A stretch of DNA of 18,875 bases from Escherichia coli (GTDB taxonomy: Bacteria; Pseudomonadota; Gammaproteobacteria; Enterobacterales; Enterobacteriaceae). Below the pieces are notes generated by a model that was given only the letters and a program-made list of their open reading frames with translations, searched no databases and was not told where the DNA came from. The stretch's first letter is position 1. The number at the start of each line of letters is the position of its first letter. The DNA lies in NCBI RefSeq assembly GCF_003334335.1, contig NZ_QOWQ01000056.1; one strand, 5' to 3'. Below are positions 78 through 14,105 of the stretch, one piece after another. The position numbers and the translations under genes were made by a program.

Positions 78-423
78 CTTGCGAACATTGTTCATCAACT
101 GTGACACTGGCTCGCGGGTGACAAATACTCGCCTGGCTGAGCAGCAACAGGCATCGTATTGTTGCTCCTCCATGTTGTTCCCGCAACCAGCGTAATACCA
201 CAGGCAGTGCTGGACTGGCAGTGTGATTGCTCTCAGTAATACGTTCGTGCACCTGTCGGAAAAAGGAAGTACAGAATGCATGAATCTGTTGCCCGTTGAT
301 ATTTCCTTCTGCCGAATGGAGTGTGAAGTAAAATGCCAGCAAATGCGGCCAGTGGTCCACCGCCTGCTGAACAAAACGCCGGATGTCTCCCGGCTCTGAA
401 ATTAAGGCTTCGGTTATTTGCAC
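64..423 (-). CDS. Hypothetical ORF, possibly a gene remnant in the GC-richer left flank; no family recognised
   Basis: 119-aa ORF in the track; the first codon is GTG (plus-strand cac at 421-423) and there is no in-frame ATG near the start. Stop TAG lies inside the left inverted repeat (64-66). A second overlapping minus-strand frame (54-374) is also open, so coding status is uncertain. Confidence 0.2.
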   Translation of the reverse strand: MQITEALISEPGDIRRFVQQAVDHWPHLLAFYFTLHSAEGNINGQQIHAFCTSFFRQVHERITESNHTASPALPVVLRWLREQHGGATIRCLLLLSQASICHPRASVTVDEQCSQGACT

Positions 424-430
424 GAAATGT
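398..430. repeat. Left copy of an imperfect direct repeat bracketing the microcin island (candidate att-like boundary)
   Basis: Core cttcggttatttgcacgaaatgt (408-430) matches cttcggttatttgctcggaatgt (14083-14105) at 21/23; with 10 flanking bases about 27/33. Same orientation. It sits at the switch from GC-richer flank to the AT-rich microcin block. Confidence 0.45.
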
Positions 431-758
431 TCCTTTTCAAACCCTGTTGGATTTTGTCAAGACGGTACAGACACAGTAAAGCGCGCATCAACACCTGAAA
501 GGTACGATACAAACACAAGTTACAAACAATAAGAACGGAAGGACAATTAATCAGTGAGGAATAATAACTAAATTAACCAAAAGAATGTTACTGACAATAC
601 CACCAATACTTAAATAGCAATATATTAATTAATGTAAGAACAGATGCCCGGTAAGACATATACACAATACATCCACAAACACACTCTTTTCATTAAATAA
701 ATCACCTGATTAAACCATGAAAGTGTGATGTAAGTCAAAATTACTGACACAATCAATT

Positions 759-783
759 GATAATGATTATCTCTATCATTATC
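759..783. promoter_or_regulatory. Fur-box-like operator (iron-responsive) upstream of the 869-2125 operon
   Basis: gataatgattatctctatcattatc: the first 13 nt match the Fur consensus GATAATGATAATC with one mismatch and the last 9 nt (ATCATTATC) match the consensus 3' half exactly. It lies about 85 bp upstream of the ATG at 869. Confidence 0.45.
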
Positions 784-868: not shown

Positions 869-1339
869 ATGAGTTACTATATGAAAATATACTGGACAAG
901 AAAAAACATTCCTGAACTTTCAGCACTTCCACCTTCATTAAGAAAGAAAAATTTTACTGACGCATATAATGCTGCATCTTCCCATATCGAATACTGGATA
1001 GGTGCTGGCGTCTCATTTATCTCGATGATGATTTTATTCAAAGTATATGACTTTCTTTTACCCGCCCAAGATACTTTCCCGGGTGATATCATAAGAAGTT
1101 TATGTGTTGTGTGTCCATCCATATTAATCTGGTTTCAGTTTTCGGTATATGTCATGAGGAAATATTACAGACATATTCTGGAACGAGGTAAGGAAACCGA
1201 AACCATTTCAGAAAGGTTGATACGTGAGGCTGATACACGAGAATATGAACTATGGCGTCCGGCCCATCGCTTTTTCTCCATTATTTTTCTCATTATTCTA
1301 TTAGTTTGCATTCATTCACTGATAACAACTATAAAATAA
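869..1339 (+). CDS. Putative polytopic membrane protein (156 aa), function unknown; possible microcin immunity or accessory protein
   Basis: ATG start at 869 (second ATG at 881); hydrophobic segments (WIGAGVSFISMMILF, LCVVCPSILIWFQFSVYV, FFSIIFLIILLVCIHSLI); very AT-rich like neighbouring microcin genes; co-directional and 100 bp upstream of the CPBP gene. No obvious Shine-Dalgarno. Confidence 0.45.
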   Translation: MSYYMKIYWTRKNIPELSALPPSLRKKNFTDAYNAASSHIEYWIGAGVSFISMMILFKVYDFLLPAQDTFPGDIIRSLCVVCPSILIWFQFSVYVMRKYYRHILERGKETETISERLIREADTREYELWRPAHRFFSIIFLIILLVCIHSLITTIK

Positions 1340-1438: not shown

Positions 1439-2125
1439 ATGGAAATAACAAAAAATAAAAATGCAACTATAAAAAAACAGTCATCAGCCGGCTGCTTTTC
1501 AATGTTTACTTTATCATTTTCCATTACCTTTATTCCTGCATTTCTTACAAACAGGCAGGAACTTATATCCAGGGGGCTTCTTGTTCCAGCATTATTTCTT
1601 GCTGAATTTCTAATTCTTGTTCCACTGTATTTTATTTTCTTCCGAAAAAGAGAAGGATTAGGAAGAGGTTCTTTTCGACTGGATGTTTTTTTTACTCTTT
1701 TCTCTTTAATAATGATTATTCAGTTATTTGTCCCTTATCTGCTGGCAGTGAGGAAAACGGAAGAATGGATGATCTCGCAAATGTCTTTTTCCGGGGCCAT
1801 TTTATGGATTAATATATTTTCTTCCGTACTTCTTGTTCCTGTATATGAAGAGATTGTATTTCGAGGGTGTCTTTTTAACTCTTTTAAATTCTGGTTTAAT
1901 GACAATATTTACATCTCTGCTATTGTAACATCAGTCATATTTTCTGCATTACATCTACAATATACTGACTTTCGTACATTTTTGATGCTCTTTCTGATAT
2001 CGTTAGTTCTTATCAGTGCAAAAATAAAGTCGAATGGCCTGTTAATGCCCATATTACTTCACATGGCGATGAATGCAGTCATAACAGGAATACAATATAC
2101 GTTACAATATCACATAACAGTCTGA
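1439..2125 (+). CDS. CPBP-family (CAAX protease / bacteriocin-processing, Abi PF02517-type) intramembrane metalloprotease, McmM/MceF-like
   Basis: 228 aa; ATG at 1439 preceded by taaggga (1426-1432). Family motifs in order: EExxxR (VYEEIVFRG), FxxxH (FSALH), HxxxN (HMAMN), within a multi-helix hydrophobic protein. Homologues (mceF, mcmM) are known in siderophore-microcin clusters. Confidence 0.8.
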   Translation: MEITKNKNATIKKQSSAGCFSMFTLSFSITFIPAFLTNRQELISRGLLVPALFLAEFLILVPLYFIFFRKREGLGRGSFRLDVFFTLFSLIMIIQLFVPYLLAVRKTEEWMISQMSFSGAILWINIFSSVLLVPVYEEIVFRGCLFNSFKFWFNDNIYISAIVTSVIFSALHLQYTDFRTFLMLFLISLVLISAKIKSNGLLMPILLHMAMNAVITGIQYTLQYHITV

Positions 2126-2377
2126 AATTGTTATTATGAGATATCTATAACACCTGAAGTTGGAAAAAGAAGCAAATAATTCCTTATAAGGAATCGTTTA
2201 CTAATATATTTAGATAATCTCATATTTGTTTATGATATACATCTGATTAAGATATAATGGATTATAAATTACTCAAAGGTGAACAAATATCTTCGCCTTT
2301 TCTCGTAGAAAGAGACTTGAAACTTATAATACATCTATATAAACGTGATTTAAATCACGGTTTGCAGTAAAAGCAAT

Positions 2378-2386
2378 TGGTATAAT
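2378..2386 (+). promoter_or_regulatory. Candidate extended -10 promoter element (TGgTATAAT) for the immunity-like/microcin-like pair
   Basis: tggtataat at 2378-2386 fits the TGnTATAAT extended -10 pattern; the nearest -35-like hexamer (ttgcag, 2362-2367) has a short 13-nt spacer. Sequence-only prediction. Confidence 0.25.
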
Positions 2387-2570
2387 TCATTGGTATTACT
2401 ATTATTTCATCTATTGCACGAACTATTTTACAACAATAAAAAAGATATACAAACAGCAAGAAGTAAAAATATTCGGATAAATAAAAATTTTTGCTACCTT
2501 GGTTTCTATAGTCTTTATTTCTAAGTTTTTCATAAGCACTCAAAGACTCATGTATAGGGACGGTTTAATA

Positions 2571-2735
2571 ATGAAACTATTTTTTTATTTCTCGTTGTTC
2601 TTTATAATACAACTTATAAATTCAGACTTAGACACATTAACCCTTTATCTTTTCATAAAGAAAATAATTCTTTCGTTACTTGCGAGTGTACTGTTTTTAT
2701 TTGTTTTATCTTTCTTTAATAAAAAGAGGAAATAA
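2571..2735 (+). CDS. Candidate microcin immunity protein (small two-helix hydrophobic peptide, about 54 aa)
   Basis: The track ORF 2499-2735 starts at TTG; in-frame ATGs occur at 2550 and 2571, and the 2571 one has aggga 11 nt upstream. Product MKLFFYFSLFFIIQLI...IILSLLASVLFLFVLSFF NKKRK has two hydrophobic helices and a basic tail. Stop TAA (2733-2735) is 1 nt before the microcin-like ATG, and the precursor's RBS lies inside its last codons. Confidence 0.4.
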   Translation: MKLFFYFSLFFIIQLINSDLDTLTLYLFIKKIILSLLASVLFLFVLSFFNKKRK

Positions 2736-2736
2736 C

Positions 2737-3060
2737 ATGAGAAATATAACAACCGATGAACTTGCTTTAATACATGGTGCAGGATTAGATAAAGATGCAT
2801 CCGTTGCAATAGGTACTGCGGCTGGTGGTTTTTTAGGTAAAGCAACAAAAATCCCTGGTGCGGATATAGCAGGAAGTGCAATTGGAGGATATATTGGAGG
2901 AGTTATTGCTGATGGTTCAAATAGGACAATAACAATACCATCAAACGGTATTAACTATAATCCGGGTATAGGACTTGGAAGTTTTAATCCAAACTACAAT
3001 GGAGGTTTATTAAACTCAGGATTTAACTCATCAACATCCTCTTCTAGTAGTGGAAGTTGA
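2737..3060 (+). CDS. Class IIb (siderophore-type) microcin-like precursor, 107 aa: 15-aa double-glycine-type leader plus 92-aa Gly/Ser-rich core
   Basis: ATG at 2737 with strong SD aagagga (2724-2730). Leader MRNITTDELALIHGA|G parallels MchB MREITESQLRYISGA|G and the MRxI(S/T)xxEL pattern. Core is cysteine-free, 20/92 Gly, and ends NSSTSSSSSGS like the Ser-rich tails of H47 and E492 that receive the salmochelin-type moiety. The track's 126-aa version starts at TTG (2680) with no RBS and overlaps the upstream ORF. Confidence 0.7.
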   Translation: MRNITTDELALIHGAGLDKDASVAIGTAAGGFLGKATKIPGADIAGSAIGGYIGGVIADGSNRTITIPSNGINYNPGIGLGSFNPNYNGGLLNSGFNSSTSSSSSGS

Positions 3061-3069
3061 TTAATTTCT

Positions 3070-3105
3070 AAAGCAGCATAGCTTATTATGCAGCAATGCT
3101 GCTTT
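3070..3105. terminator. Candidate bidirectional rho-independent terminator between the convergent microcin-like gene and mchF
   Basis: aaagcagcat (3070-3079) pairs with atgctgcttt (3096-3105); an alternative tighter hairpin gcagc-aat-gctgc is followed by tttt. Located between the stop at 3060 (+) and the stop at 3121 (-). Confidence 0.45.
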
Positions 3106-3120
3106 TAGTGATATATTATC

Positions 3121-5223
3121 CTAATTTGTAATTCTAAAAATCCGATCAACTGTTCTTAAAGTTGTCTCTCTATGTGCAATAATCACCCGGGTGATATTCA
3201 TCTTTTTTATAGCAGCATTCACGAAACGTTCACTTTCTGTATCAAGAGAACTTGTAGCCTCATCCATAAATAATATTCCAGGTTTCCGGTATAAAGCTCG
3301 GGCAATGAATATACGCTGTTTTTGACCGCCGGAAAGACCTTCCCCCAGTTCACCTATTAACGTTTCATACCCCATTGGCATTTTCATTATCACATCATGA
3401 ATATGACTTGCTCTGGCACATTCTGTCATCCATTCGTCGTCTGTTTCTTCTGCAAACCCACAGATATTTTCACGAATTGATCCTGAAAATAGCCGGTCGT
3501 CCTGCATAACACAGGCTATCATACGGTGATAATTATTTATTCCAAGTTGACGTATATCCGTGCCATTAACCAGTACTTTTCCACTATCTGGTTCAAACAG
3601 TCCACATAATACTTTCATTAATGTGGTTTTTCCGGCACCGGAGGCACCAGTTATAGCCACACTTTCTCCCGGAGCCACAGACAAATTCAGACCACTGAAT
3701 ACCTGTGCTGACTGGCTGTCATACCGGTAGCTTAAATCAGTGGTTTCCAGTGAAACCGGGCTCATGTCAGCAACGATTTCAATTTCCGGTTTCTTTTCTT
3801 CCTTTTCATGTAGTGCAATATCTGCAATGCGCTCATTATGCAGACTCATTATTCTCAGTTGAAGAAGAAAACTGGTCAGCGAAGCAACCCGATCCGAAAA
3901 CTGCCCACGAAAAGAACCAAATGCCACAAACATCCCTATTGTCATCTGATTATCGATCACAAGGCTTGCACCCAGCCATAAAATCGCCACCTGATCACAG
4001 GCGGCAACAAAAGTATTTATCCCCCCGAAGAGCAAATCCATCCTGGTTAACTTAATACCTGAATTGATCGCATCTATTTTCAGGTTAAGCCAGTGTGTTC
4101 CCCGAATCCCAGCCATACCCTGGATTTTTACCGTGGCAATACCATACAGGCTTTCCATAAAATAGGAGCTGGCCCGGGCCCCCCTGACAAGAGTTTCTTC
4201 CGATATTTGCCGGTAATAGCCGTATGTCACCAGACGAATAAGAACGTAAACCATGGTAAAACCGAGCACTATCCAGGTAAGATATCCTCCATATAACAGC
4301 ATCATCACAAAAACACCCACAACCATAATACTGTCCATGATTGCCCCAACAACACAGGTGGTAAAGGTGGCCCTCAAAGTGTCAAGGGAGCCAAAACGCG
4401 ACTGGATATCACCTAATTTACGGCGTTCAAAAAACGCCAGCGGCAGTCTGAGAAGATGGTTAAACAGACCCGACTGCCACTGTATATTGATGAGCGTGCT
4501 CATAACCAGTGAGGACCATGCACGCAGCATACTCACCGCGGCCCTGAGCAATATAAAGAACATCAGGCCAGCAGAAATAAGCGTCAGCAGCCCTCTGTCC
4601 CCCGCCGGAATCGCATGATCCATAACCAGCTGAGTTCCCACCGGCATTACCAGATTGATTGCTTCAATTACAACTGACAGACAGAAAATTTTCGCCAGTG
4701 TTCTTTTAATACCGTAAATACTGTTAATCAGTGAACGGAGACTTATGCGGGTCTGCTGGGTTTCCGCCAGGAATTCACTTCCGGGCCAGACCTCAAGTGC
4801 AATGCCCGTAAAATACCGGCTCATTTCCTCCCGACCGAGATATCTTCTGCCTCTGGCCGGATCATGCAGTACATAACGGTTACGCTTTACGCTGACCAGC
4901 ACGACGAAGTGACTGAAATCCCAGTGGAGAATACACGGCATTTTGAGGGCACCAAGTTCATCCAGCTCCAGTGAAAGAGCCCGGGTGACCATCCCCAGCT
5001 GCTCCGCTATTCCATTGATTCCTGCAAGGTTTGCTCCACGGGCCGAGAGATTAAACTTCCGGCGAAGAGATATCAGGTCAATATTCTTACCAAAATGACC
5101 GCATATCATTGCCAGGCAGGCCAGTCCACATTCAGCGGTCTCCGTCTGATGAATAACCGGAACACGACGTCGCCAGCGCATATCAAGCTGATTTATAATT
5201 TGTCTGAAATTCCCGTTAGTCAT
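3121..5223 (-). CDS. mchF: Microcin export ABC transporter with N-terminal C39 peptidase domain (CvaB/MchF family)
   Basis: About 700 aa. C39 catalytic Cys context [14 protein letters not shown]; Walker [10 protein letters not shown]; ABC signature LSGGQKQR; Walker [10 protein letters not shown]. The track ORF (to 5241) begins at GTG; the ATG at 5223 ([10 protein letters not shown]) has AGGA 9 nt upstream and overlaps the mchE stop by 8 nt, as in cvaA/cvaB. Confidence 0.93.
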
Positions 5224-6457
5224 TGAGCGGTCCTGTTGCACTGTGTTTCATGTCATAGAAAGGAGAAAGCATCCACTGGTAAATACGCCTTTTTTCCAGA
5301 AATAGTGTACTTTCGGCTTTCATTCCATTTTCCAGAGGGAGGTATTTTTCGTCATATCTGATAATCTGCTTTTCAGGCATCGCAATGACTTTATACCAGG
5401 GAACAGAGTCGCCCGGCGTATTCTGTGGTGCTCCCTTATAGGTCAACATTTCCTGTGTTGACGCAGGAGTCCTGGATATAGTTTTAACCGTAGCAGAGAA
5501 CTGCCCAAATTTTTCTGCCGGAAAGGCTTCATAACGAATATTCACTTTGTCACCAGCCGAAATATAAGGAACAGCATCATTCGGGACCCAGAGAATAAGA
5601 TAATAGTTTTCAATGTTCTCAGGAATAACCTGCAGAAGGCTGTCTCCGGTATTGACCATTTGCCCGACAGTGACACTCAGGGAGTCAACTTTCCCGTCAG
5701 TCAACGCCCGGATAATGATTTCGCCCTCCACATCAGTGTTAACCAGTTCTTTCTGTAACTCATACCGTTGCAGTTCCATCTGGTAGATACGGTTATCAAA
5801 ATCTGCAGCCTGAGTCTGAATCTGACTCTCCAGAGTGGTTATCTGCAGGGCATTCTGTTCGTTCTGTCCGCTCAGGCTGAGAAGATTGTTTTGTTGCTGA
5901 TAATATAATGCCACCTGGTTAGTTAACTGATCTTTATTAATCAGCCCTTTTGCCTGATAGTTTCTGTAATTCTCCATATTGTTTTTCATTATTTTTATCC
6001 CTTCCTCTGCACGCTGTATAATATCTGATGAGCGACGAAACGCATCTGTGTATTGCAGGCGTTGTTTTTCCAGGGTATCTAGCGTTATTTTTTTACTTTC
6101 TTCCAGACGGGAAATAATGTTGTCCACACGAACCAACTGGTTTTCTATATCCCGACGATGATTATCAGTGACAATACCACTACGTGTACTTTTACTGATG
6201 TCAATCAGATAAACAGGATCCCCTTTTTTTATCAACTGTCCTTCATGAACAAACTGCCTGACAACAAATCCCTGTACACCTGAATATATATTGACAGCTC
6301 TTGGCCAGGTTGTGACCTCACCACTGACATTAACACGGCGGCTATAGGTACCAACAATAATGAACATCAGAAATGCCGTAATAAACACTATGCTTCCCAG
6401 CATGATTAACCATAGTGGTATTCCGGGAAGTAATATTGCCCGTCCCTGCCACTTCAT
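5216..6457 (-). CDS. mchE: HlyD-family membrane fusion / secretion protein (CvaA/MchE family)
   Basis: N-terminal TM segment ([28 protein letters not shown]) followed by a long coiled-coil region and C-terminal beta domain typical of HlyD-type partners. The track ORF starts at TTG (6490); the first ATG is at 6457 ([12 protein letters not shown]), giving 413 aa. Confidence 0.92.
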
Positions 6458-6642
6458 TTTTCTGTTTTCTAAAGCATCCTGACGAAACAAAATAGCTCCT
6501 CTTACTCACACTTTTCCTGTAATATCTTCACTGGTTAACCGAAATGCTATAATCAAAGCCAGAAAATACAGAGTCCTGTCAAAATAGTATCAGCGATGCA
6601 TTTACCCCGTAATTTACAATTATCTCTGTATCTTCAGAGGTA

Positions 6643-7095
6643 CTACGTTTTATGCAGCCGCTCAGGGATGTATGTCACAATTTTCTTTCGCCTGCTTAAC
6701 CATCGTACTTCTCCTTCTCCCCATGGCTGAAGCTGTATGAGATAGTCAATAACTTTTCGACCAAAGCCTGGTTTACAACAGAAATCCAGAATCCAAATCC
6801 TTCCATCTTCATTCCATTCAGACGGATGCAACCTGAATTCTGGATCCCTGAGCAGGCGCGCTTCTGTATCAGCCTCAAGATATGCCCAGGTAATATACGC
6901 CAGTGGAAAACCTCGTGAATCAAACAGGAATTTAATCTGATTATGCTGTATCGCATATTCAGTCCAGTATTGAATGGTTAACACCGGATACAGACTGTAA
7001 TTACGATTGTAGAGCATACAACTGACCGCAAAACCGATCTGTTCATAAACAGTCCATTCATCTTTTCCTCTGATGGTTTCCCTTATATAAGACAT
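6643..7095 (-). CDS. mchD: MchD/MceI-like microcin maturation protein (HlyC-like acyltransferase family), 150 aa
   Basis: ATG start at 7095; 150 aa; located between mchC and mchE in the conserved mchBCDEF order. In the E492 system the MceI/MceJ pair links glycosylated enterobactin to the C-terminal Ser of the precursor. Confidence 0.8.
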   Translation of the reverse strand: MSYIRETIRGKDEWTVYEQIGFAVSCMLYNRNYSLYPVLTIQYWTEYAIQHNQIKFLFDSRGFPLAYITWAYLEADTEARLLRDPEFRLHPSEWNEDGRIWILDFCCKPGFGRKVIDYLIQLQPWGEGEVRWLSRRKKIVTYIPERLHKT

Positions 7096-7120
7096 GATTA
7101 CTATTTCCCTTATATATTTT

Positions 7121-8671
7121 TTACACTGTGTTTCTTATCGGTTCAAGATATCCAAATGCATCTCTGGAAAACTTAAGCATAAAATTTTTCATATCAGAAA
7201 TTGCTTCTTGTAAAAAAAGGGGATCATCGCCATGATTATCCAGCAGGATGGCAATTTTTTCGCACATATTCTCTTTCCTCAGCTCTTCCCTGGGTTGCAG
7301 CCTTTTCATGGTATGATGTTCAATTTCTTTCAGGAGTAATGAGGCATTTATCTGACGTCTGGTACTGCCTTGCGTCAGCCAGTGGATGGCCTGGGAAAAA
7401 CACTGTTGTGCAACGGTGAAATAAACATCATTCTTGATGCTACTATTCAGTGCCTGCTTTTGATTATGCCTATGATGGATTAGCGTCACAACCAACTTTT
7501 GCAATGGTGAACCATCCTGATTGACAATATCTTGGGCATGTGATTTCTCGCAGTATTGATTGAGTAATGCAACAAAACTGTTAACCAGTTCTTTCAATAT
7601 ATCAGGTATCTCTTTTTGTGTTATAAATTCTCCAGGAATACCCAACAGTTCTAGATAACAGTAATAACATGCTTCATGAAAAGTTTTCTGAAATATCTCC
7701 TCAACCTTCAAACGGGCTGCAAGAGTGAAGTCAGGGTCAAACATATATTTTCCGATATACAAGCAGAGATCAGACAGCCCTTGCATAAGTACCATCGGTT
7801 CTTTTGCCAGTTCAGCTAATCTTAGTTTATACCCAAAATCAGCTGGGGAATCTCCCGGAAACAGACAACTGAGTCCGCTAAAATCCATTAATCTGCCATC
7901 CATTGCAATATTAGAAGGAGAAGTTGTCAATCTCAGGAAACGTGTTCGACAAAATGCCATTTGCCAGGCCTCACGACGTGCCAGTTCACATAACCCCTCA
8001 ATGCAATAAATCCGGGGATCAGTTCGTGCTTCAGCATCAATTTCTTCCGGTGGTACAGGTAGATATCCTGGCAGCTTGTGGATCACAGATCTAACCCGAC
8101 AGGCATCGTGAATTAACAGACTGGAATACTCCGGTTTTACTTGGAAGTAAGGTGCCCGTTCAAAATGCGCCGGACGAACAACAGGCTCACGTACCAACAG
8201 GGCTCTTCGTGATTTCCTACCGGAGCGCTCAAATGCCTTTTCAGTATAGAGATCTGTAAGTAAAACCGCCCGAACCCGCACAGCACTATAAGGTAATATT
8301 TGAGCCAGTACTTCTCCCCACAAAGCCTCATATATTGCATGAACAGCGCCGAGTGCACCATTAGAATGACGTTCGTCAGTACCTTCGCCAACCAACGGAT
8401 TACTTCCTATTCCTTTAACCTGGTAGTTACCATCAAACCCACAACGTGCACCACCTCCATTACGCTGAATACCACTGCCACCATAGCGCTCTGCATGGAA
8501 CACTTTGGCAGAAGCTGTACTGCCAGGATCGATAATATAACTGCAGGCATTTTGCAGCTCGTCTGGATTTCTGACATCCTCTGCACACCAGATTAATGAG
8601 GCCTTGATCTGCCTGGCAGTGAAAGGCACCAGGTTTTCATTCAGTTCAGAAAGTGAACACTGATGACTCAT
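7121..8671 (-). CDS. mchC: MchC/MceJ-like microcin maturation protein, 516 aa
   Basis: ATG start at 8671 (MSHQCSLSELNENLV...), GGAG about 12 nt upstream; 516 aa; immediately downstream of mchB on the same strand and upstream of mchD. Confidence 0.85.
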   Translation of the reverse strand: MSHQCSLSELNENLVPFTARQIKASLIWCAEDVRNPDELQNACSYIIDPGSTASAKVFHAERYGGSGIQRNGGGARCGFDGNYQVKGIGSNPLVGEGTDERHSNGALGAVHAIYEALWGEVLAQILPYSAVRVRAVLLTDLYTEKAFERSGRKSRRALLVREPVVRPAHFERAPYFQVKPEYSSLLIHDACRVRSVIHKLPGYLPVPPEEIDAEARTDPRIYCIEGLCELARREAWQMAFCRTRFLRLTTSPSNIAMDGRLMDFSGLSCLFPGDSPADFGYKLRLAELAKEPMVLMQGLSDLCLYIGKYMFDPDFTLAARLKVEEIFQKTFHEACYYCYLELLGIPGEFITQKEIPDILKELVNSFVALLNQYCEKSHAQDIVNQDGSPLQKLVVTLIHHRHNQKQALNSSIKNDVYFTVAQQCFSQAIHWLTQGSTRRQINASLLLKEIEHHTMKRLQPREELRKENMCEKIAILLDNHGDDPLFLQEAISDMKNFMLKFSRDAFGYLEPIRNTV

Positions 8672-8695
8672 CTGGCAGTATTCTCCGTTTCAATT

Positions 8696-8721
8696 TTCAT
8701 AAAAGAGTGTTCATAAAAGAG
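8696..8721. repeat. Tandem 12-bp direct repeat (ttcataaaagag x2, 2-nt spacer) in the mchC upstream region
   Basis: ttcataaaagag at 8696-8707 and again at 8710-8721, 25-50 bp upstream of the mchC start codon (8671, minus strand). Candidate operator or UTR element. Confidence 0.3.
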
Positions 8722-8942
8722 CAAGTAAGTGTCCTGACAGCTTCTTCCTTATTACAGTAAAACTCTATTAATTACACATAAATTAAAAAATTATTTATCA
8801 ACGACTGTAAATCATATCTTCATCAGTAAAGTGTTGAACATAAAAACACACTTATAAATGGATCTTCTATCTGTTTTAAACAAAAAGGATATATTTTACA
8901 GGTACTACCGAAAAAGTGCCTGTAAAATAAATAAAAATATAA

Positions 8943-9170
8943 TTAGCTACCGCCACCAGCAGAAGAACTGGCACTACCACTTCCCACGGTCGAGCCAATT
9001 GCTGTTGTCAAACCGGCAGATACGGCTCCAACTACAACCCCAAGTGGACCACCAGGTATTCCGGCGAGAGCTCCAACAATAGCTGCAGCACCTGCAGCAT
9101 TAGCTGAAGTCGCTGGCGCACCTCCCGCCCCGGAAATATATCTTAACTGTGATTCTGTTATTTCTCGCAT
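8943..9170 (-). CDS. mchB: Microcin H47 precursor (75 aa; 15-aa double-glycine-type leader, Gly/Ala-rich core, Ser-rich C-terminal tail)
   Basis: Translation MREITESQLRYISGAGGAPATSANAAGAAAIVGALAGIPGGPLGVVVGAVSAGLTTAIGSTVGSGSASSSAGGGS matches the microcin H47 precursor as I remember it (length, leader, SASSSAGGGS tail). ATG at 9170. Confidence 0.95.
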   Translation of the reverse strand: MREITESQLRYISGAGGAPATSANAAGAAAIVGALAGIPGGPLGVVVGAVSAGLTTAIGSTVGSGSASSSAGGGS

Positions 9171-9197
9171 ATAAACTGCATATAAACTCCATCATAT

Positions 9198-9407
9198 TTA
9201 ACTTCCGTTTTTCCAGTCTGACCAGACCAGAATCCTTCGAATCCCATGAATCAGCTCAATAAAACCAAGAAATATTATAAAGCTTAGAAAAACGTCAACA
9301 TAAGAATTCCCTTCGCCAACAATCCGAAGGGATGAAAGTGAAACCAATAAGATAGTAATAGGTAAACTGAATATAGCCGTCAATTGGGACAGTTTTTTAT
9401 AACTCAT
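9198..9407 (-). CDS. mchI: Microcin H47 immunity protein (69 aa, membrane peptide)
   Basis: 69-aa hydrophobic peptide (two predicted TM helices) directly upstream of and co-directional with mchB; ATG at 9407. Size and position match MchI. Confidence 0.88.
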   Translation of the reverse strand: MSYKKLSQLTAIFSLPITILLVSLSSLRIVGEGNSYVDVFLSFIIFLGFIELIHGIRRILVWSDWKNGS

Positions 9408-9475
9408 TAATCCCTACCTGTTGCTTTATTTTCATTATGAAAAGTTACCAAATCTTAGCACCTCAGTCAGGAGAG

Positions 9476-9595
9476 TCAGGTCATCGATAAAGAATATTCC
9501 AGTAGAGTGGCGCTCATGATCAAAGATAACAGCAAAGTTGATGACAGTGCTGACCGACTGTCATTTACAGAAACCCTGTTTGTAGCAAATTCCAT
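9476..9595 (-). CDS. mchX: Small 39-aa ORF upstream of mchI (MchX-like regulatory peptide)
   Basis: Not in the track (below 60 aa); found by hand: ATG at 9595 to TGA at 9476-9478, translation MEFATNRVSVNDSRSALSSTLLLSLIMSATLLEYSLSMT (39 aa). Position and length match mchX of the H47 system; I cannot confirm the sequence from memory. Confidence 0.55.
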   Translation of the reverse strand: MEFATNRVSVNDSRSALSSTLLLSLIMSATLLEYSLSMT

Positions 9596-9626
9596 CTTAC
9601 CTGACCTCACCCAGACAAAGACAAAA

Positions 9627-9645
9627 GAGAATGATTGTTATTTAC
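9627..9645. promoter_or_regulatory. Weak Fur-box-like site in the mchX / mchS4 divergent promoter region
   Basis: gagaatgattgttatttac matches the 19-bp Fur consensus at 13/19; it sits about 30-50 bp upstream of the mchX start on the minus strand. Confidence 0.3.
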
Positions 9646-9818
9646 TTTTCAAAAAAAGTGTCATATTGTCCATATAAAGTCAAGAGGTATTTTACGTTAT
9701 GTCACTGATGCAATTGTTAGTCAGGATCTCATGGTTGTCGCTCATGTATAACCTGAGACTTGAACGCACACTAATAGCGCTGACGGTCATACATCGGGAA
9801 ATGTGAGGAGGCATAAGA

Positions 9819-10064
9819 ATGAATTGTGATAATAATCACAGAAATGAAGAATTCATTGTTACCTTTGATAAAGGCAACAAGCAAGACAATTCAAGACGAA
9901 AACACGATAATTTTCCTATAGAGGTAGAATCCTCCGTAGAGCAGGAGACACACTGTATCACAAATAATAAGTCAGCTTCCGGTATAGTAACACATGGCTA
10001 TGATGCCGATTATATTTGTGGTTGTGGTGAAATTATGTGTCCTGGTTGCGGTCATGACCTATAA
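9819..10064 (+). CDS. mchS4: Small 81-aa protein with C-terminal Cys cluster (CxC-x4-CxxC), MchS4-like by position
   Basis: ATG at 9819 with SD gaggagg (9805-9811). C-terminus YICGCGEIMCPGCGHDL. Position between mchX and mchS3 matches the H47 island gene order as I recall it. Confidence 0.55.
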   Translation: MNCDNNHRNEEFIVTFDKGNKQDNSRRKHDNFPIEVESSVEQETHCITNNKSASGIVTHGYDADYICGCGEIMCPGCGHDL

Positions 10065-10084
10065 CAAACATTTTTGCAAACTGA

Positions 10085-10098
10085 TACCTGATCAGGTA
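10085..10098. repeat. Perfect 14-bp palindrome tacctgatcaggta just downstream of mchS4
   Basis: tacctgatcaggta is its own reverse complement; lies 21 bp after the mchS4 stop and about 120 bp upstream of mchS3. No loop, so it looks more like a protein-binding site than a terminator. Confidence 0.3.
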
Positions 10099-10219
10099 CA
10101 AGCCTGTTGATTATTATGCTGAATATTTCATGTTATAAAACCATCGATATAAACATTAACAAGAAAAAACATATATTGTTTATCTGAACATTTATCGATG
10201 GAAAACCAAAGGGGAAAGT

Positions 10220-10654
10220 ATGTATCTTACGAAAAAGATTATAATAAGTATGATGTTTATATTACCATCTGCTGCATTTTCATCAGATCCACCTCCCCTT
10301 CAACAATCGTTAGAAAAAACAACCTATTTTTCTATAGGTATGAATGGGTTTATAGGCTATCAGAGCGAAGGGGAAAAATTATACACACACATTCTTACAT
10401 TAGATAATCCCGAAGAGATATTTAAAAATATAATAGAAAATAGAAAGTCAACTAAGGAGTCTAAAATTTATGCTGCTTGTGGGCTATATTATTTAAACGT
10501 AGAAAATATAGAGTCATTGTTTAATGAAAATGATAAACAAGAATATATGTCTGTCTTAAGAGGGGATATTTTAACAAAAATAAAACTGAATGATATTCTG
10601 AATTCTGTGATAATAAATGGTTGCAACACCAAATTAATATCTGAACATAAATGA
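10220..10654 (+). CDS. mchS3: Putative immunity protein for the downstream microcin (144 aa, N-terminal signal/anchor), MchS3-like
   Basis: ATG at 10220 with SD aaagggga upstream; N-terminal hydrophobic segment KKIIISMMFILPSAAFSS; ends 16 bp before the microcin precursor gene, the classic immunity-then-toxin arrangement. Confidence 0.65.
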   Translation: MYLTKKIIISMMFILPSAAFSSDPPPLQQSLEKTTYFSIGMNGFIGYQSEGEKLYTHILTLDNPEEIFKNIIENRKSTKESKIYAACGLYYLNVENIESLFNENDKQEYMSVLRGDILTKIKLNDILNSVIINGCNTKLISEHK

Positions 10655-10670
10655 GCAGGAGGTTTTTAAA

Positions 10671-10907
10671 ATGAGAGAAATATCAGATCACATGCTTGAT
10701 TTCGTGAAAGGAGGGATGAATCTTAATGGATTACCTAGTTCTACTAATGTAATAGATCTACGAGGAAAAGATATGGGAACATATATTGATGCTAATGGAA
10801 CATGCTGGGCTCCGGGTACTCCATCCATCATCATGTATCCGGGGGGAAGTGGACCTTCTTATAGTATGAGTAGTTCCACATCCAGCGTAAACAGCGGCAC
10901 ATCATAA
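10671..10907 (+). CDS. mchS2: Second siderophore-microcin-type precursor (78 aa; leader MREISDHMLDFVKGG, Ser-rich tail), microcin I47-like
   Basis: ATG at 10671 with SD aggagg (10657-10662). 15-aa leader ending GG, 63-aa core with one Cys, C-terminal SMSSSTSSVNSGTS. Position next to mchS3 and mchS1 matches the H47 island. Confidence 0.8.
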   Translation: MREISDHMLDFVKGGMNLNGLPSSTNVIDLRGKDMGTYIDANGTCWAPGTPSIIMYPGGSGPSYSMSSSTSSVNSGTS

Positions 10908-10940
10908 ATACCCTCCGGCATGGCCGGAGGGTATTTATGA
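10902..10940 (+). terminator. Rho-independent terminator-like hairpin at the end of mchS2
   Basis: 18-nt arms tcataaataccctccggc / gccggagggtatttatga around a 3-nt loop (atg), with a GC-rich core ccctccggc/gccggaggg; overlaps the mchS2 stop codon. Confidence 0.5.
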
Positions 10941-11191
10941 TGTGCCTGTAAGACTCTACTTCTGTCGTCTCTTAACAAAGGCATATGATCTGTCATTTTG
11001 TACCAGACATCTTAACGAGAGCCTTTTCATATATTACTTACACACGTGAAATCTACAGTATAAAGCAAAAATTTTATTAAACCTGTTTTATATTTATCAT
11101 CAATACAACAGATTTAATTCCGGAAAGTCACTCATCATCCCTTGAATGAACGTCATTTGATGTATTATTCTTACACTTGGATTAATTTAAG

Positions 11192-12466
11192 ATGATACCT
11201 ATGAAAAACTATCTTTTCCAGACTCCCGAAGATATTTGTGTACAGTTAAAAAAAATGACACATCCTGTCACAATAAGAACAACAGATATTGCTAATTTCT
11301 GGCACTATCTTGAGTCAGCAACACTTCCAGTGATCACAAAAAGCACCACTACAGAAAATCGGGAGGTTACATTTCTGTGGCGCTCAGAGAAAGCACTGCA
11401 AGGCGTATATCTTCGCCTGAATCGTGTTACAGATAAAAAAGACGTCAAAAAAGGACTAATGACTCATATCCCTTCGACAGATATCTGGATGCTGACACTG
11501 GTGTTACCAGCTTCATATCGGGGCTCATACTCATTTATAGAAATTCCCACAGATATGACACAAAAAGACATATTTCAACTAGGAAGTCGCTTCTCTCCAT
11601 TACCCGGTAAATCTGATCCATTTAACAAAACAGCAGAAATAAATATACGAGGATTCGGAGAATCAGTCCTTTCTCTTGATATGGCTCCTGAACAAAAGGA
11701 ATGGGATGATACTTCCCATAAATGTACAGGTATTCTTTCAACATTACATTCCTTTGTTGCAGGATATCAACGCCGGATTCGTTTATATTTCCCCCTGAAT
11801 CCAACATCAGTACCTCTTGGATTACTTGTGTTACCTGATGCTGAAACATGGTTTGACCGGATAGATATTACCCGGGCATTAGATATGGCCATCACCACTG
11901 GTCGTATCACGCCAATGGCAATTATGGGGATAGACAATATTAATGAATCTGATCGTATGAATATACTGGGAGGCAATAAAGAACTCATCTTTGATATAGC
12001 GGAAAATCTGATACCCCAGTTATACAGAGACTATCCGGATATCGTATGGGCTGGTCGCTCTAATACTGTACTGGCCGGGCAGAGCCTCGGTGGAGTGACA
12101 GCACTGATGGCAGCTATATATGCGTCGACAACATTTGGTACAATCATTAGTCACTCACCTTCAATGTGGTGGAACCCTGACCAGGGCAGCCCGATCTTGT
12201 TTACTGAGAATAATACCTCCTGGGTAAGTGAGCAGATACTTTCAGCGCCTCCGAAAGATGTAAATATCCGACTTGGAGTCGGTTCTTTAGAAGGTACAAC
12301 CGTCTCACATGTTCAGCGATTGCATCATTCGTTAATCGCAGCTGGTTTGGAAAGTAACCTCACTGTCTATACCGGTGGTCACGATTATGCTTGGTGGCGC
12401 GGAGCAATTATTGATGAATTAGCAAATTATAATTGCAGGAAGGTATCAAATAATAACTCTGTGTAA
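11192..12466 (+). CDS. mchS1: IroD-like enterobactin/salmochelin esterase (alpha/beta hydrolase), 424 aa
   Basis: Serine-hydrolase nucleophile motif GQSLGG (AGQSLGGVTALMAA); size close to IroD/Fes-type esterases; convergent with and adjacent to the IroB-like glycosyltransferase. Alternative ATG at 11201. Confidence 0.8.
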   Translation: MIPMKNYLFQTPEDICVQLKKMTHPVTIRTTDIANFWHYLESATLPVITKSTTTENREVTFLWRSEKALQGVYLRLNRVTDKKDVKKGLMTHIPSTDIWMLTLVLPASYRGSYSFIEIPTDMTQKDIFQLGSRFSPLPGKSDPFNKTAEINIRGFGESVLSLDMAPEQKEWDDTSHKCTGILSTLHSFVAGYQRRIRLYFPLNPTSVPLGLLVLPDAETWFDRIDITRALDMAITTGRITPMAIMGIDNINESDRMNILGGNKELIFDIAENLIPQLYRDYPDIVWAGRSNTVLAGQSLGGVTALMAAIYASTTFGTIISHSPSMWWNPDQGSPILFTENNTSWVSEQILSAPPKDVNIRLGVGSLEGTTVSHVQRLHHSLIAAGLESNLTVYTGGHDYAWWRGAIIDELANYNCRKVSNNNSV

Positions 12467-12535
12467 AATATCGTTTTATCGTCCGATAACTCTTTCTGCA
12501 ATATTATTATGGGAGACTGTCTCATTTATTTAGTG

Positions 12536-12564
12536 ATGTCCTTCATTTATGTGATGAAGGACAT
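12536..12564. terminator. Candidate bidirectional terminator hairpin between convergent mchS1 and mchA
   Basis: atgtccttcat (12536-12546) and atgaaggacat (12554-12564) form an 11-bp stem with a 7-nt loop, flanked by T/A-rich runs on both sides. Confidence 0.45.
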
Positions 12565-12607
12565 TATATTACTCATAACATTTCTCGTTGAAAATTTCAG
12601 CAATACG

Positions 12608-13732
12608 CTACAATTGTTTCCCGTTGTTTTTTAATTTTCTCATCAAAACCTCTGCGATCTCTGCAGGAGTGGGTTGTTCAGCCATTTCAGCGGCTACCTG
12701 ATCTGAACAGAAGCGTAGTGAATCATCATAAAGCAGGCGATTTACCAAATCACTGGTCAGTCCATGCTTGTCCGGAATAATCCCACACCCACGCTTCGCA
12801 ACAATTTCTGCATTAACAGAGCGATCTGCACCTTCTCCAAACACAATCTGTGGTATTCCACTATACAGCGCTGTCAGGGTATTACCTGCGCCACCGTGAT
12901 GAATAAATCCATCAGCTCCATTAAGGAATACACCCATAGGTATCCAGTCAACCAGACGTACATTTGATGGTAGTTTTCGTAATCCAGTACGAGCATTTAT
13001 TGCAAGTTGCAAAATGATATCAGCATCAACTTCATTTGCTGAATCCATAACCCATGAAATCAGCTCCAGACCATCAACCATTGGTTTTACAGTGCCAAGG
13101 CTGATGAGTAAACGTTTCCGATCAGAATCCCTGTCCCACCATGTTTCCTTTACAGCACCTCCGTTATAAGGAATATATCGCATTGAGATAATCGGTTCTT
13201 CAGCATTTTTAAGAATGCTCATACTTGGGGGAGCAACATCAATCCATGCTAAATCACATAGTGGACCGCTGACTCCATGCCGCCTGTAAGCATTGCTTAA
13301 AGAACGGTTTAACATCTGAATATGGGCAGATGTATGCGCGAATCCAACAGCCAGCATCACTGAAGGAATTCTATATTTAGCAGCAACCAATGGGCCTGCC
13401 GGACCAAGCGGGGGATAGACTATTAAATCTGGCCTCCATTTTCCTGCAAAATCGATGAGGTTATCTGCCATTTCATCGCTAAAAAAAGAGAAATGACCAA
13501 TAATATTACTTTTTTTCCTCAACTCTTCCTGATGGCGATATCCAGCCTCTGAATCTAAACTTGGAGCTGCATCAAAAACAACCAGTCCAGCTTCTGCTGC
13601 TTTATTCGCGAATTTGCCAGCGCTACTAATTACTACATCATGTCCGATTACACGAAAGGCCTGAGCCAGAGAAATCAATGGGTATAACAAACCGTACAGC
13701 GGAGGGCCAATAAAAAGAATACGTTTTCGCAT
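12608..13732 (-). CDS. mchA: IroB-like C-glycosyltransferase (GT1/MGT family) for enterobactin glucosylation, 374 aa
   Basis: ATG at 13732 (MRKRILFIGPPLYGLLYPLISLA, the IroB-like N-terminus); UDP-sugar-binding signature region FIHHGGAGNTLTAL; length close to IroB. Confidence 0.88.
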   Translation of the reverse strand: MRKRILFIGPPLYGLLYPLISLAQAFRVIGHDVVISSAGKFANKAAEAGLVVFDAAPSLDSEAGYRHQEELRKKSNIIGHFSFFSDEMADNLIDFAGKWRPDLIVYPPLGPAGPLVAAKYRIPSVMLAVGFAHTSAHIQMLNRSLSNAYRRHGVSGPLCDLAWIDVAPPSMSILKNAEEPIISMRYIPYNGGAVKETWWDRDSDRKRLLISLGTVKPMVDGLELISWVMDSANEVDADIILQLAINARTGLRKLPSNVRLVDWIPMGVFLNGADGFIHHGGAGNTLTALYSGIPQIVFGEGADRSVNAEIVAKRGCGIIPDKHGLTSDLVNRLLYDDSLRFCSDQVAAEMAEQPTPAEIAEVLMRKLKNNGKQL

Positions 13733-14072
13733 TAAAAAAGTCCGTCTTCTGCTTACCTGTTTATTTTTCTATCGCTAAGAAAACATAATTAATATTATTT
13801 TTATGTGAGCTTATGCACAAAAATAACAAAGTATCTTATCTTCTGGTAGAGATACAGGATACAGTTTGTAGGAGCTTTCTTTTTTTGAACAATGATTTGC
13901 AGGACAGTTATGCCAACCTAGCAGAATCAGTATCACAACAATAAATGACAGATCATACCTGAAATTTGAATTAACAGGCATCATGAATGTCAATAGTCTA
14001 AGCGGTTACTACTTACATCGCTTGCATAAATACTAAACACTGACTAGAAAAGTATTGGATAACCCCGTCACT

Positions 14073-14105
14073 AAAAGTAACACTTCGGTTATTTGCTCGG
14101 AATGT
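14073..14105. repeat. Right copy of the imperfect direct repeat bracketing the microcin island
   Basis: See the 398-430 entry; the core at 14083-14105 is 21/23 identical to 408-430. It lies in the 675-bp non-coding gap between mchA and the alpA-like gene. Confidence 0.45.

What the first reader, a model, noticed from the sequence alone, without database searches (positions are those of the whole stretch)
8943..10907. Multiple toxin/immunity pairs sharing one maturation and export system
Seen in sequence: besides the new candidate, the window encodes mchB (75-aa H47 precursor) with mchI, and mchS2 (78 aa, leader MREISDHMLDFVKGG, Ser-rich tail) with the 144-aa mchS3. That makes three double-glycine-leader, Ser-tailed precursors, each with an adjacent putative immunity gene, against one set of mchA, mchS1, mchC, mchD, mchE and mchF. 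Inference: the island acts as a multi-toxin platform in which cargo pairs are swapped around a conserved machinery. Notably the new precursor sits on the far side of mchF from the others.
Basis: partly seen in the sequence, partly recalled or inferred. Interest (0 to 1): 0.55.

Follow-up and report, generated by a model that had tools for sequence, protein, structure and literature searches.

The report
Known three-microcin island of E. coli

Summary
A six-frame scan finds exactly three ORFs with a 15-residue M-R-x-[IL]-[ST]…G-[GA] leader and a Ser-rich tail ending in Ser: mchB (8943-9170 −), mchS2 (10671-10907 +) and a 107-aa ORF (2737-3060 +). Each follows a small upstream gene: mchI, mchS3 and a 54-aa ORF (2571-2735). 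The window holds one copy each of mchA, mchS1, mchC, mchD, mchE and mchF.

A 2020 review states that several siderophore microcins in one cluster share modification and export genes. H47, I47 and Ec W were each produced experimentally with the same mchCDEFA set.

The "new candidate" is not new. It is 100% identical to Ec WA (WP_001390454.1), published in 2025 from E. coli NCTC10444 with its immunity peptide Ec WI, in the same slot next to mchF. That slot normally holds microcin M. Here a 1,037-bp cassette replaces the 742-bp mcmI-mcmA cassette, with breakpoints in the last codons of the CPBP gene (mcmM) and of mchF.

In 5,426 complete E. coli genomes:
- mchBI: 292 genomes
- mcmIA: 259
- mchS2: 166
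- Ec WIA: 117

Minor points I did not find in the papers read are an I47 allele ending …SGTS, a strong Fur-box-like site upstream of the mcmM-side genes, and further two-cluster strains.

The parts
381..430 (.). Left copy of an imperfect direct repeat. Candidate att-like boundary of the H47 genomic island.
   Evidence: The repeat pairs with 14057-14105 at 39/49 identity, 13.7 kb apart. The H47 island is described as about 13 kb flanked by imperfect direct repeats (PMC3191183). I recovered only about 50 bp of repeat, not the published 144-148 bp.
753..783 (.). Fur-box-like array upstream of the + strand genes 869-3060.
   Evidence: Positions 759-777 match GATAATGATAATCATTATC at 17 of 19, with overlapping 13-16/19 matches. 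This is the best match in the window. Across the window there were 32 hits of at least 13/19, against 9.7 ± 4.2 in shuffles. Function is inferred.
869..1339 (+). Hypothetical membrane protein, 156 aa. It is conserved next to the CPBP gene in both cassette types.
   Evidence: ORF. Three hydrophobic segments. No NCBIfam match. Present in NCTC10444 next to both clusters.
1439..2125 (+). CPBP-family intramembrane glutamic endopeptidase. This is the gene the Ec W paper calls mcmM.
   Evidence: CPBP NCBIfam models hit residues 127-215 at E 9e-13. PGAP names it a CPBP family protein. The paper's cluster coordinates start at this gene. A homologue sits beside mchCDEF-like genes on a Salmonella plasmid.
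2099..3135 (.). Ec W cargo cassette, 1,037 bp, GC 0.30. It replaces the 742-bp microcin M cassette.
   Evidence: Homology to the MccM-type cluster L003 stops at 2098 and resumes at 3136. The C-terminal 8 residues of the CPBP protein and the last 4 of MchF differ between the two types.
2571..2735 (+). Ec WI, the immunity peptide for Ec W, 54 aa.
   Evidence: It is 52/54 identical to the ORF at NCTC10444 3367763-3367927, the published Ec WI. One nucleotide separates it from Ec WA, as published. A hydrophobic segment lies at residues 32-50.
2737..3060 (+). Ec WA, a class IIb microcin precursor of 107 aa.
   Evidence: It is 100% identical to WP_001390454.1 at NCTC10444 3367929-3368252. Leader MRNITTDELALIHGA, tail SSTSSSSSGS, no Cys. 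A GAGG Shine-Dalgarno motif lies 7 nt before the ATG.
3090..3102 (+). Terminator-like hairpin between the convergent Ec WA and mchF genes.
   Evidence: GCAGCAATGCTGC followed by TTTTAG. This is a consensus match only.
3121..5223 (-). mchF, the ABC exporter with a C39 leader peptidase domain, 700 aa.
   Evidence: Pfam Peptidase_C39 at 21-149 (1.5e-39), ABC_membrane, and ABC_tran. PGAP names it 'microcin export peptidase/ABC transporter MchF'.
5216..6490 (-). mchE, the HlyD-family membrane fusion partner of MchF. It overlaps mchF by 8 nt.
   Evidence: TIGR01843 type_I_hlyD at E 1e-29. PGAP annotation.
6643..7095 (-). mchD, the HlyC-like acyltransferase-family maturation protein (MceI homologue).
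   Evidence: Pfam HlyC at 3.3e-11. Its role comes from the literature (PMC7472721).
7121..8671 (-). mchC, a maturation protein (MceJ homologue), 516 aa.
   Evidence: No significant Pfam match (best E 0.012) and no NCBIfam match. PGAP names near-identical copies 'MchC protein'.
8943..9170 (-). mchB, the microcin H47 precursor, 75 aa.
   Evidence: PGAP names it 'microcin H47', WP_001375214.1. Leader MREITESQLRYISGA, tail SASSSAGGGS.
9198..9407 (-). mchI, the H47 immunity protein, 69 aa, with two hydrophobic segments.
   Evidence: PGAP annotation. Hydropathy. It lies 27 nt upstream of mchB.
9476..9595 (-). mchX, a small 39-aa ORF at the head of the mchXIB operon.
   Evidence: ORF. Role and Fur control come from the literature (PMC6071977).
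9627..9645 (.). Weaker Fur-box-like site in the divergent mchX / mchS4 control region.
   Evidence: 14/19 match. A functional Fur box upstream of mchX is reported (PMC6071977; PMC7472721).
9819..10064 (+). mchS4, 81 aa with a C-terminal Cys cluster. Reported to promote enterobactin production.
   Evidence: It falls in the same 90% cluster as UniRef Q712P8 'MchS4 protein'. Function comes from the literature.
10220..10654 (+). mchS3 (mciI), the microcin I47 immunity gene, 144 aa.
   Evidence: NF041432 MchS3 family at 137 bits, cut-off 100. mciI is used as the I47 immunity gene in PMC9542533.
10671..10907 (+). mchS2 (mciA), the microcin I47 precursor. This is a 78-aa allele ending …SVNSGTS.
   Evidence: ORF and leader MREISDHMLDFVKGG. 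An AGGAGG Shine-Dalgarno motif precedes the start. This exact protein occurs on at least 1000 contigs. PGAP does not annotate it.
10908..10934 (+). Perfect 12-bp hairpin directly after the mchS2 stop codon.
   Evidence: ATACCCTCCGGC-ATG-GCCGGAGGGTAT, read. It is conserved in NCTC10444 cluster 2. A terminator role is inferred.
11192..12466 (+). mchS1, an enterobactin esterase homologue (IroD-like), 424 aa.
   Evidence: NF007758 enterochelin esterase at E 7.5e-57.
12608..13732 (-). mchA, a glycosyltransferase (IroB-like), 374 aa.
   Evidence: TIGR04516 and TIGR01426 glycosyltransferase families. PGAP names it 'glycosyltransferase'.
14057..14105 (.). Right copy of the imperfect direct repeat (att-like).

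Best explanation
The window carries the chromosomal siderophore-microcin (class IIb) island of E. coli, in the variant that encodes microcins H47, I47 and Ec W.

Proposed mechanism:
1. Three precursor genes (mchB, mchS2/mciA, Ec WA) are each transcribed after their own immunity gene (mchI, mchS3/mciI, Ec WI).
2. All three precursors carry a 15-residue leader ending in GG or GA and a Ser-rich tail ending in Ser.
3. The single MchA glycosyltransferase glucosylates enterobactin, and MchS1 linearises it.
4. MchC/MchD ester-link the product to the C-terminal Ser of whichever precursor is present.
5. MchF, through its C39 peptidase domain, cleaves the leader during export together with MchE and TolC.
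6. Target cells take up the toxins through catecholate siderophore receptors.

What is shown here: the genes, their integrity, their motifs and their arrangement; the identity of the third pair with the published Ec WI/WA; and the cassette replacement relative to microcin M clusters.

What is taken from the literature: the enzymology, the use of one mchCDEFA set for each of the three toxins, and the immunity functions.

What is inferred: that all three are made in this particular strain.
For: - Exactly three ORFs in the window have the leader plus tail signature. Leaders and tails align with each other and with McmA.
- All four published class IIb sequence criteria (PMC11634061) were tested on the three precursors.
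- Ec WA is 100% identical and Ec WI 52/54 identical to the published genes.
- The window is collinear with NCTC10444 cluster 2 over 79-14994 at 97.9% identity.
- MchF has complete C39, transmembrane and ATPase domains. MchD is HlyC-like. MchS1 matches enterochelin esterase and MchA matches glycosyltransferases. None is flagged as a pseudogene in the 100%-identical strain N10.
- Shared machinery is stated in PMC7472721. It was used experimentally for I47 and H47 (PMC9542533) and for Ec W, including the requirement for Ec WI (PMC12999681).
Against: - Nothing in the window contradicts the explanation.
- The mchS2 allele here ends …SGTS, whereas both NCTC10444 alleles end …SGS. It has not been tested.
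- No experiment addresses native expression of Ec WIA. The promoter scan was at chance level (43 sites found, 45 expected).
- The parts of the Ec W paper that I read report no mass spectrometry of a siderophore adduct.
Confidence: 0.9

Rival explanations
1. Only some of the three cargo pairs are productive in this strain. In particular, the 78-aa MchS2 allele ending …SGTS may be a poor substrate for MchC/MchD, or may be poorly expressed. The island would then deliver fewer than three toxins.
For: - The tail differs from both NCTC10444 alleles through a changed stop codon: GGC AGT TAA becomes GGC ACA TCA TAA.
- MccI47 activity is reported only under iron deprivation (PMC3191183).
- PGAP does not call the gene.
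- Other strains carry damaged copies, for example a KRG leader in NCTC10444 cluster 2 and 5'-truncated matches in O104:H4 strains.
Against: - The ORF is intact, with an AGGAGG ribosome-binding site, a KGG leader and a terminal Ser.
- This exact protein is on at least 1000 contigs, more than the 277 contigs of a listed 77-aa member of the same cluster.
- It is present at 99% identity or more in 27 complete genomes.
Confidence: 0.12
2. Ec W shares only the MchEF exporter and is not siderophore-modified. It would then behave as an unmodified class IIa-like microcin parked next to the exporter.
For: - The Ec W cassette is foreign to the cluster (GC 0.30 against 0.44) and is transcribed convergently to mchF.
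- The parts of the Ec W paper I read report no chemical proof of modification.
- One homologue (P0005) lacks the Ser-rich tail.
Against: - The tail SSTSSSSSGS aligns with the tails of H47, I47 and M.
- Ec W meets every published class IIb sequence criterion.
- Activity was obtained in the iron-limited mchCDEFA system.
- A 73%-identical Salmonella homologue with a tail ending in GGGS sits directly after mchCDEF-like genes.
Confidence: 0.06
3. The CPBP protease (mcmM, 1439-2125), rather than the 54-aa peptide, is the real immunity determinant for the third toxin.
For: - From my own knowledge, CPBP/Abi proteins act as bacteriocin immunity proteins in Gram-positive bacteria.
- The gene is adjacent and co-directional with Ec WIA.
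- The EExxxR, FxxxH and HxxxN motifs are readable in the translation.
Against: - The gene lies outside the swapped cassette and is about 97% identical in microcin M clusters. It is therefore not cargo-specific.
- The published experiment shows that Ec WI alone permits growth during Ec WA expression.
Confidence: 0.04

Closest known systems
Ec W cluster of E. coli NCTC10444 (cluster 2; Bhattarai, Bucci and Mortzfeld 2025, PMC12999681)
   Same: - Gene order and orientation match from the CPBP gene to mchA. DNA identity is 97.9% over window 79-14994.
- Ec WA is 100% identical.
- The 1-nt spacing between Ec WI and Ec WA is the same.
- MchB (H47) is identical.
   Different: - Ec WI differs at 2 of 54 residues.
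- mchS2 here has an intact KGG leader and a …SGTS tail. The NCTC10444 cluster 2 copy has KRG and …SGS.
- The window's closest match is strain N10 (100% over 78-17826). N10 showed a single place in each of the two cargo searches in which it was listed.
Classical H47/I47/M island (E. coli H47, CA46, 042; NCTC10444 cluster 1)
   Same: mchXIB, mchS4, mchS3-mchS2, mchCDEF, the CPBP gene and the upstream membrane protein are collinear at about 97% identity. Several toxins share one machinery in the same way.
   Different: The slot between the CPBP gene and mchF holds mcmI-mcmA, co-directional with mchF, instead of Ec WI-WA, which is convergent with mchF. The breakpoints are at window 2098/2099 and 3135/3136.
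Microcin E492 system of Klebsiella pneumoniae
   Same: It has homologous maturation and export functions (MceC/D/I/J/G/H) and the same leader and Ser-rich tail logic (PMC7472721). MchB gives a weak match to the NCBIfam E492 microcin model (E 4.5e-4, below cut-off).
   Different: Different cargo and a different gene order. mceX is linked to mceIJ rather than to the structural gene (PMC6071977).
W-type microcin locus on a Salmonella enterica plasmid (CP191517.1, locus L004)
   Same: A 109-aa protein 73% identical to Ec WA, with leader MRNLNVHELNLIMGA and a tail ending in GGGS, lies next to mchC-, mchD-, mchE- and mchF-like genes and a CPBP gene.
   Different: It is plasmid-borne. The precursor is co-directional with mchF. 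No mchA/mchS1 homologue was called within the 20 kb fetched, and IS elements flank the locus.

Membership tests
Class IIb (siderophore) microcin precursor, criteria of Mortzfeld et al. 2024 (PMC11634061) | Ser-rich C-terminus ending in a final Ser | tested here: met
   The last 10 residues are SASSSAGGGS (H47), STSSVNSGTS (I47 allele) and SSTSSSSSGS (Ec W).
Class IIb (siderophore) microcin precursor, criteria of Mortzfeld et al. 2024 (PMC11634061) | Fewer than two cysteines | tested here: met
   Cys counts are 0, 1 and 0.
Class IIb (siderophore) microcin precursor, criteria of Mortzfeld et al. 2024 (PMC11634061) | Signal peptide within the first 15 residues, ending in GG or GA | tested here: met
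   The leaders are MREITESQLRYISGA, MREISDHMLDFVKGG and MRNITTDELALIHGA. No other ORF in six frames has the motif.
Class IIb (siderophore) microcin precursor, criteria of Mortzfeld et al. 2024 (PMC11634061) | Within 200 bp of an ORF with a predicted transmembrane domain (the immunity gene) | tested here: met
   The gaps are 27, 16 and 1 nt. MchI has two hydrophobic segments and Ec WI has one. MchS3 has only a 14-residue N-terminal hydrophobic stretch below my 19-residue threshold, so that case is marginal.
Class IIb (siderophore) microcin precursor, criteria of Mortzfeld et al. 2024 (PMC11634061) | Covalent glucosyl-enterobactin adduct on the C-terminal Ser, and uptake through catecholate receptors | not testable with these tools
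   This needs mass spectrometry and receptor mutants. The literature supports it for H47 and M.
Ec W microcin (PMC12999681) | 107-aa precursor identical or near-identical to NCTC10444_03266 | tested here: met
   107/107 residues identical. Strain N10, which matches the window at 100%, carries the same accession, WP_001390454.1.
Ec W microcin (PMC12999681) | 54-aa immunity ORF directly upstream, separated by one nucleotide, located between mchF and mcmM | tested here: met
   The ORF at window 2571-2735 is 52/54 identical. A 1-nt gap precedes position 2737. The pair is flanked by the CPBP gene and mchF.
H47 genomic island (Azpiroz et al. 2011, PMC3191183) | About 13 kb system flanked by extensive imperfect direct repeats (144-148 bp, 76% identity) | tested here: inconclusive
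   A direct repeat with the right spacing (13.7 kb) is present, but only about 50 bp align, at 80% identity.
H47 genomic island (Azpiroz et al. 2011, PMC3191183) | No integrase or excisionase gene inside the island | tested here: met
   None is annotated between the repeats in the identical strain N10. An AlpA-like helix-turn-helix gene lies just outside, at 14408-14644.
Peptidase-containing ABC transporter for double-glycine leaders (MchF) | N-terminal C39 peptidase domain plus ABC transmembrane and ATPase domains, all complete | tested here: met
   Pfam PF03412 covers model positions 2-132 of 133, PF00664 covers 4-272 of 274, and PF00005 covers 2-137 of 137.

The most novel reading that the evidence does not exclude
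The slot between mcmM (the CPBP gene) and mchF may be an essentially biallelic cargo locus in E. coli, holding either mcmI-mcmA or Ec WI-WA. The replacement endpoints lie inside the last codons of both flanking genes.

In the Ec W form, the cargo may be read from the strong Fur-box promoter region upstream of 869-1339. That would make a four-gene iron-regulated operon.

Separately, the 78-aa …SGTS form may be the predominant natural MccI47 allele. It could differ in maturation or activity from the 77-aa form that has been tested.
Probability: 0.3. Interest if true: 0.3.

Novelty: already known. Interest (0 to 1): 0.12.

Why it matters
Siderophore microcins shape competition among gut Enterobacteriaceae and are being engineered into probiotic strains. 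It is useful to know that one machinery serves several interchangeable toxin/immunity cassettes, but this is already the working model of the field and has already been exploited experimentally. The window adds another natural example of the H47 + I47 + Ec W arrangement. It also adds some population numbers, exact cassette breakpoints, and an untested but very common I47 allele.

Tried and rejected
- NCBIfam gave no family for the Ec W pair, MchS2, MchI, MchX, MchS4, MchC or MchD. Pfam gave no significant match for MchC and none at all for the 404-aa flank protein.
- The sigma-70 promoter scan was at chance level (43 found, 45 expected). It cannot say how Ec WIA is transcribed.
- Rfam and tRNA scans of the window found nothing.
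- The att repeats could be extended to only about 50 bp with lenient scoring.
- Two primary papers were not held: Azpiroz and Laviña 2004 (PMC375329) and Vassiliadis 2010 (PMC2798501). I therefore relied on reviews for mchS4 and for the biosynthesis steps.
- I considered whether the CPBP gene is cargo-specific immunity. I rejected this because the gene lies outside the swapped segment.
- I did not cross-tabulate which genomes carry which combination of cargos, because the search tool lists at most 60 records.
Full report
**What is in the window**

The ORF list and a whole-window megablast identify the sequence as the chromosomal microcin H47 island of E. coli. It is 100% identical over 78-17826 to strains N10 and 23CRST038. 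Sixty-three of 5,426 complete genomes carry at least 80% of the window in one place.

PGAP annotation of strain N10 and my translations give this map:

| Coordinates | Strand | Gene or product |
|---|---|---|
| 869-1339 | + | membrane protein, 156 aa |
| 1439-2125 | + | CPBP endopeptidase (mcmM) |
| 2571-2735 | + | 54-aa ORF |
| 2737-3060 | + | 107-aa ORF |
| 3121-5223 | − | mchF |
| 5216-6490 | − | mchE |
| 6643-7095 | − | mchD |
| 7121-8671 | − | mchC |
| 8943-9170 | − | mchB |
| 9198-9407 | − | mchI |
| 9476-9595 | − | mchX |
| 9819-10064 | + | mchS4 |
| 10220-10654 | + | mchS3 |
| 10671-10907 | + | mchS2 |
| 11192-12466 | + | mchS1 |
| 12608-13732 | − | mchA |

**Checking the observation**

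I scanned all six frames with the pattern M-[RK]-x-[ILVM]-[STN]-x3-[LIFMV]-x2-[IVFLM]-x-G-[GA]. It hit exactly three ORFs: mchB, mchS2 and the 107-aa ORF. All three also have at least five Ser in the last ten residues and a terminal Ser. Only one unrelated ORF end elsewhere in the window has such a tail.

Leader identities between the three are 5 to 8 of 15. The leaders and tails align with each other and with McmA, while the cores are largely unrelated.

I tested the four sequence criteria published for class IIb microcins (PMC11634061):
- final Ser in a Ser-rich tail;
- fewer than two Cys;
- a 15-residue signal ending in GG or GA;
- an adjacent ORF with a membrane segment.

All are met by all three precursors. 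One nuance is that MchS3 has only a signal-peptide-like N-terminal hydrophobic stretch.

One copy of each maturation and export gene is present, and each looks intact:
- MchF has complete C39, transmembrane and ATPase domains.
- MchD is HlyC-like.
- MchS1 matches enterochelin esterase and MchA matches glycosyltransferase families.
- None is marked as a pseudogene in the identical strain N10.

**The 'new candidate' is Ec W**

A literature search led to Bhattarai, Bucci and Mortzfeld 2025 (PMC12999681). They describe a 107-aa class IIb microcin, Ec WA, in E. coli NCTC10444 at 3367929-3368252. It lies between mchF and mcmM, in reverse orientation relative to the usual microcin M genes. A 165-nt immunity ORF, Ec WI, sits one nucleotide upstream.

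I fetched that region. It encodes WP_001390454.1, the same accession as in strain N10. My translation shows 107/107 identity for Ec WA and 52/54 for Ec WI, with the same 1-nt spacing. There are 2 DNA differences in 490 bp.

The paper shows experimentally that Ec WI is needed for growth during Ec WA expression. It also shows that Ec W, made with the authors' standard class IIb expression system, inhibits E. coli, Klebsiella pneumoniae, Salmonella, Shigella and others.

The window is collinear with that cluster at 97.9% identity over 79-14994. The three-cargo arrangement itself is therefore already in the literature.

**Shared machinery is established knowledge**

The review PMC7472721 states that when several siderophore microcins are encoded by one cluster, the genes for modification and export can be shared. 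It also lays out the pathway:
1. MchA/McmL glucosylates enterobactin.
2. MchS1/McmK linearises it.
3. MchC/MchD attaches it to the Ser- and Gly-rich C-terminus.
4. MchF cleaves the 15-19-residue leader during export, together with MchE and TolC.

MccI47 (mciA/mciI, which are mchS2/mchS3) and MccH47 were each produced with the same mchCDEFA block (PMC9542533). The 2011 island paper already notes that the H47 system also carries genes for microcin I47 (PMC3191183).

**Cargo swapping, tested here**

Against the other NCTC10444 cluster, which carries microcin M, the window aligns at 97% over 78-2098 and 3136-10917. It does not align in between.

The unmatched 1,037 bp (GC 0.30) holds Ec WI-WA. The corresponding 742 bp in the M-type cluster holds mcmI-mcmA on the opposite strand. 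The breakpoints fall inside the last eight codons of the CPBP gene and the last four of mchF, whose C-termini differ accordingly.

The position 'on the far side of mchF' is therefore the ordinary microcin M slot, filled with an alternative cassette.

Counts in 5,426 complete genomes:

| Element | Genomes | Places |
|---|---|---|
| mchB-mchI | 292 | 301 |
| mcmI-mcmA | 259 | 266 |
| mchS2 | 166 | 188 |
| Ec WI-WA | 117 | 120 |
| mchF-like, on chromosomes | not given separately | 386 |

The 386 chromosomal mchF-like places equal 266 + 120. That fits a slot holding one or the other cassette, but I did not cross-tabulate genomes, so this is an inference.

A 73%-identical W-type precursor on a Salmonella plasmid also sits directly beside mchCDEF-like genes and a CPBP gene.

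**Small points I did not find in the papers read**

*The mchS2 allele.* The allele here is 78 aa and ends …SVNSGTS. Both NCTC10444 alleles are 77 aa and end …SANSGS. The difference arises because GGC AGT TAA is replaced by GGC ACA TCA TAA, so a terminal Ser is kept. This exact protein is on at least 1000 contigs, and a listed 77-aa member of the same cluster is on 277. PGAP leaves the gene unannotated in nearly every listed genome. Whether MchC/MchD accept a -G-T-S end is untested.

*Fur-box-like sites.* The best match in the window (17/19, at 759-777) lies about 90 nt upstream of the 156-aa gene. That gene heads the co-directional series 869-1339, CPBP, Ec WI, Ec WA. A weaker 14/19 site lies at 9627-9645 in the mchX/mchS4 divergent region, where a Fur box is published.

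*A second two-cluster strain.* Strain MEI005 carries an Ec W-type cluster and also a separate M-type cluster. MEI2A-0323 shows the same pattern of hits. NCTC10444 is therefore not the only strain with two clusters.

**Verdict**

Both describe a system that is already known in detail, including the third toxin. Interest is low.

Noticed in passing
window 17586-18800 (+): A 404-aa protein with no Pfam match hits the PADLOC model PD-T7-3 (E 1.3e-36), a candidate anti-phage defence protein. The window stops matching strain N10 at 17826, inside this gene.
   Followed up: partly
window 10890-10907: The MccI47 precursor allele here is 78 aa and ends …SGTS, whereas both NCTC10444 alleles are 77 aa and end …SGS. 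A changed stop codon causes the difference and a terminal Ser is kept. The exact protein is on at least 1000 contigs, yet PGAP does not annotate it in nearly every listed genome.
   Followed up: partly
L002 (NCTC10444 cluster 2), about 11860-12094: In the published Ec W strain, the mchS2 copy of cluster 2 has leader …FVKRG instead of …FVKGG. The −2 Gly of the cleavage site is lost, which might block processing of that copy.
   Followed up: no
window 753-783: The strongest Fur-box-like array in the window (17/19) lies upstream of the 156-aa membrane-protein gene. That gene heads the co-directional genes 869-1339, CPBP, Ec WI and Ec WA. This suggests iron control of this side of the island.
   Followed up: partly
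L005 (E. coli MEI005, NZ_CP071259.1, 3042788-3063284): MEI005 has a second, M-type microcin cluster (mcmA, mchF, mchE, mchD, mchC, mchB, mchI, mchS3, mchS2, then an IS3-family element) in addition to its Ec W-type cluster at 4.64 Mb. MEI2A-0323 shows the same hits. The published statement that NCTC10444 is the only two-cluster strain no longer holds.
   Followed up: yes
window 1439-2125 (+) and L004 221-913: A CPBP (Rce1-like) intramembrane protease gene accompanies the mchCDEF-type machinery in E. coli, with either cargo cassette, and on a Salmonella plasmid. The catalytic EExxxR, FxxxH and HxxxN motifs are present. Its role in microcin production is unclear.
   Followed up: partly
window 10220-10654 (+): MchS3, the I47 immunity protein, has no 19-residue membrane segment. 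It has only an N-terminal signal-peptide-like stretch (KK-IIISMMFILPSAAF-SS), so it may be periplasmic. MchI and Ec WI, by contrast, are small membrane peptides.
   Followed up: no
window 14408-16102 (−): Just outside the right att-like repeat lie an AlpA-like helix-turn-helix gene (14408-14644), a 201-aa hypothetical gene and a YagK/YfjJ-domain gene (15536-16102). These are typical remnants of a larger integrative island.
   Followed up: no
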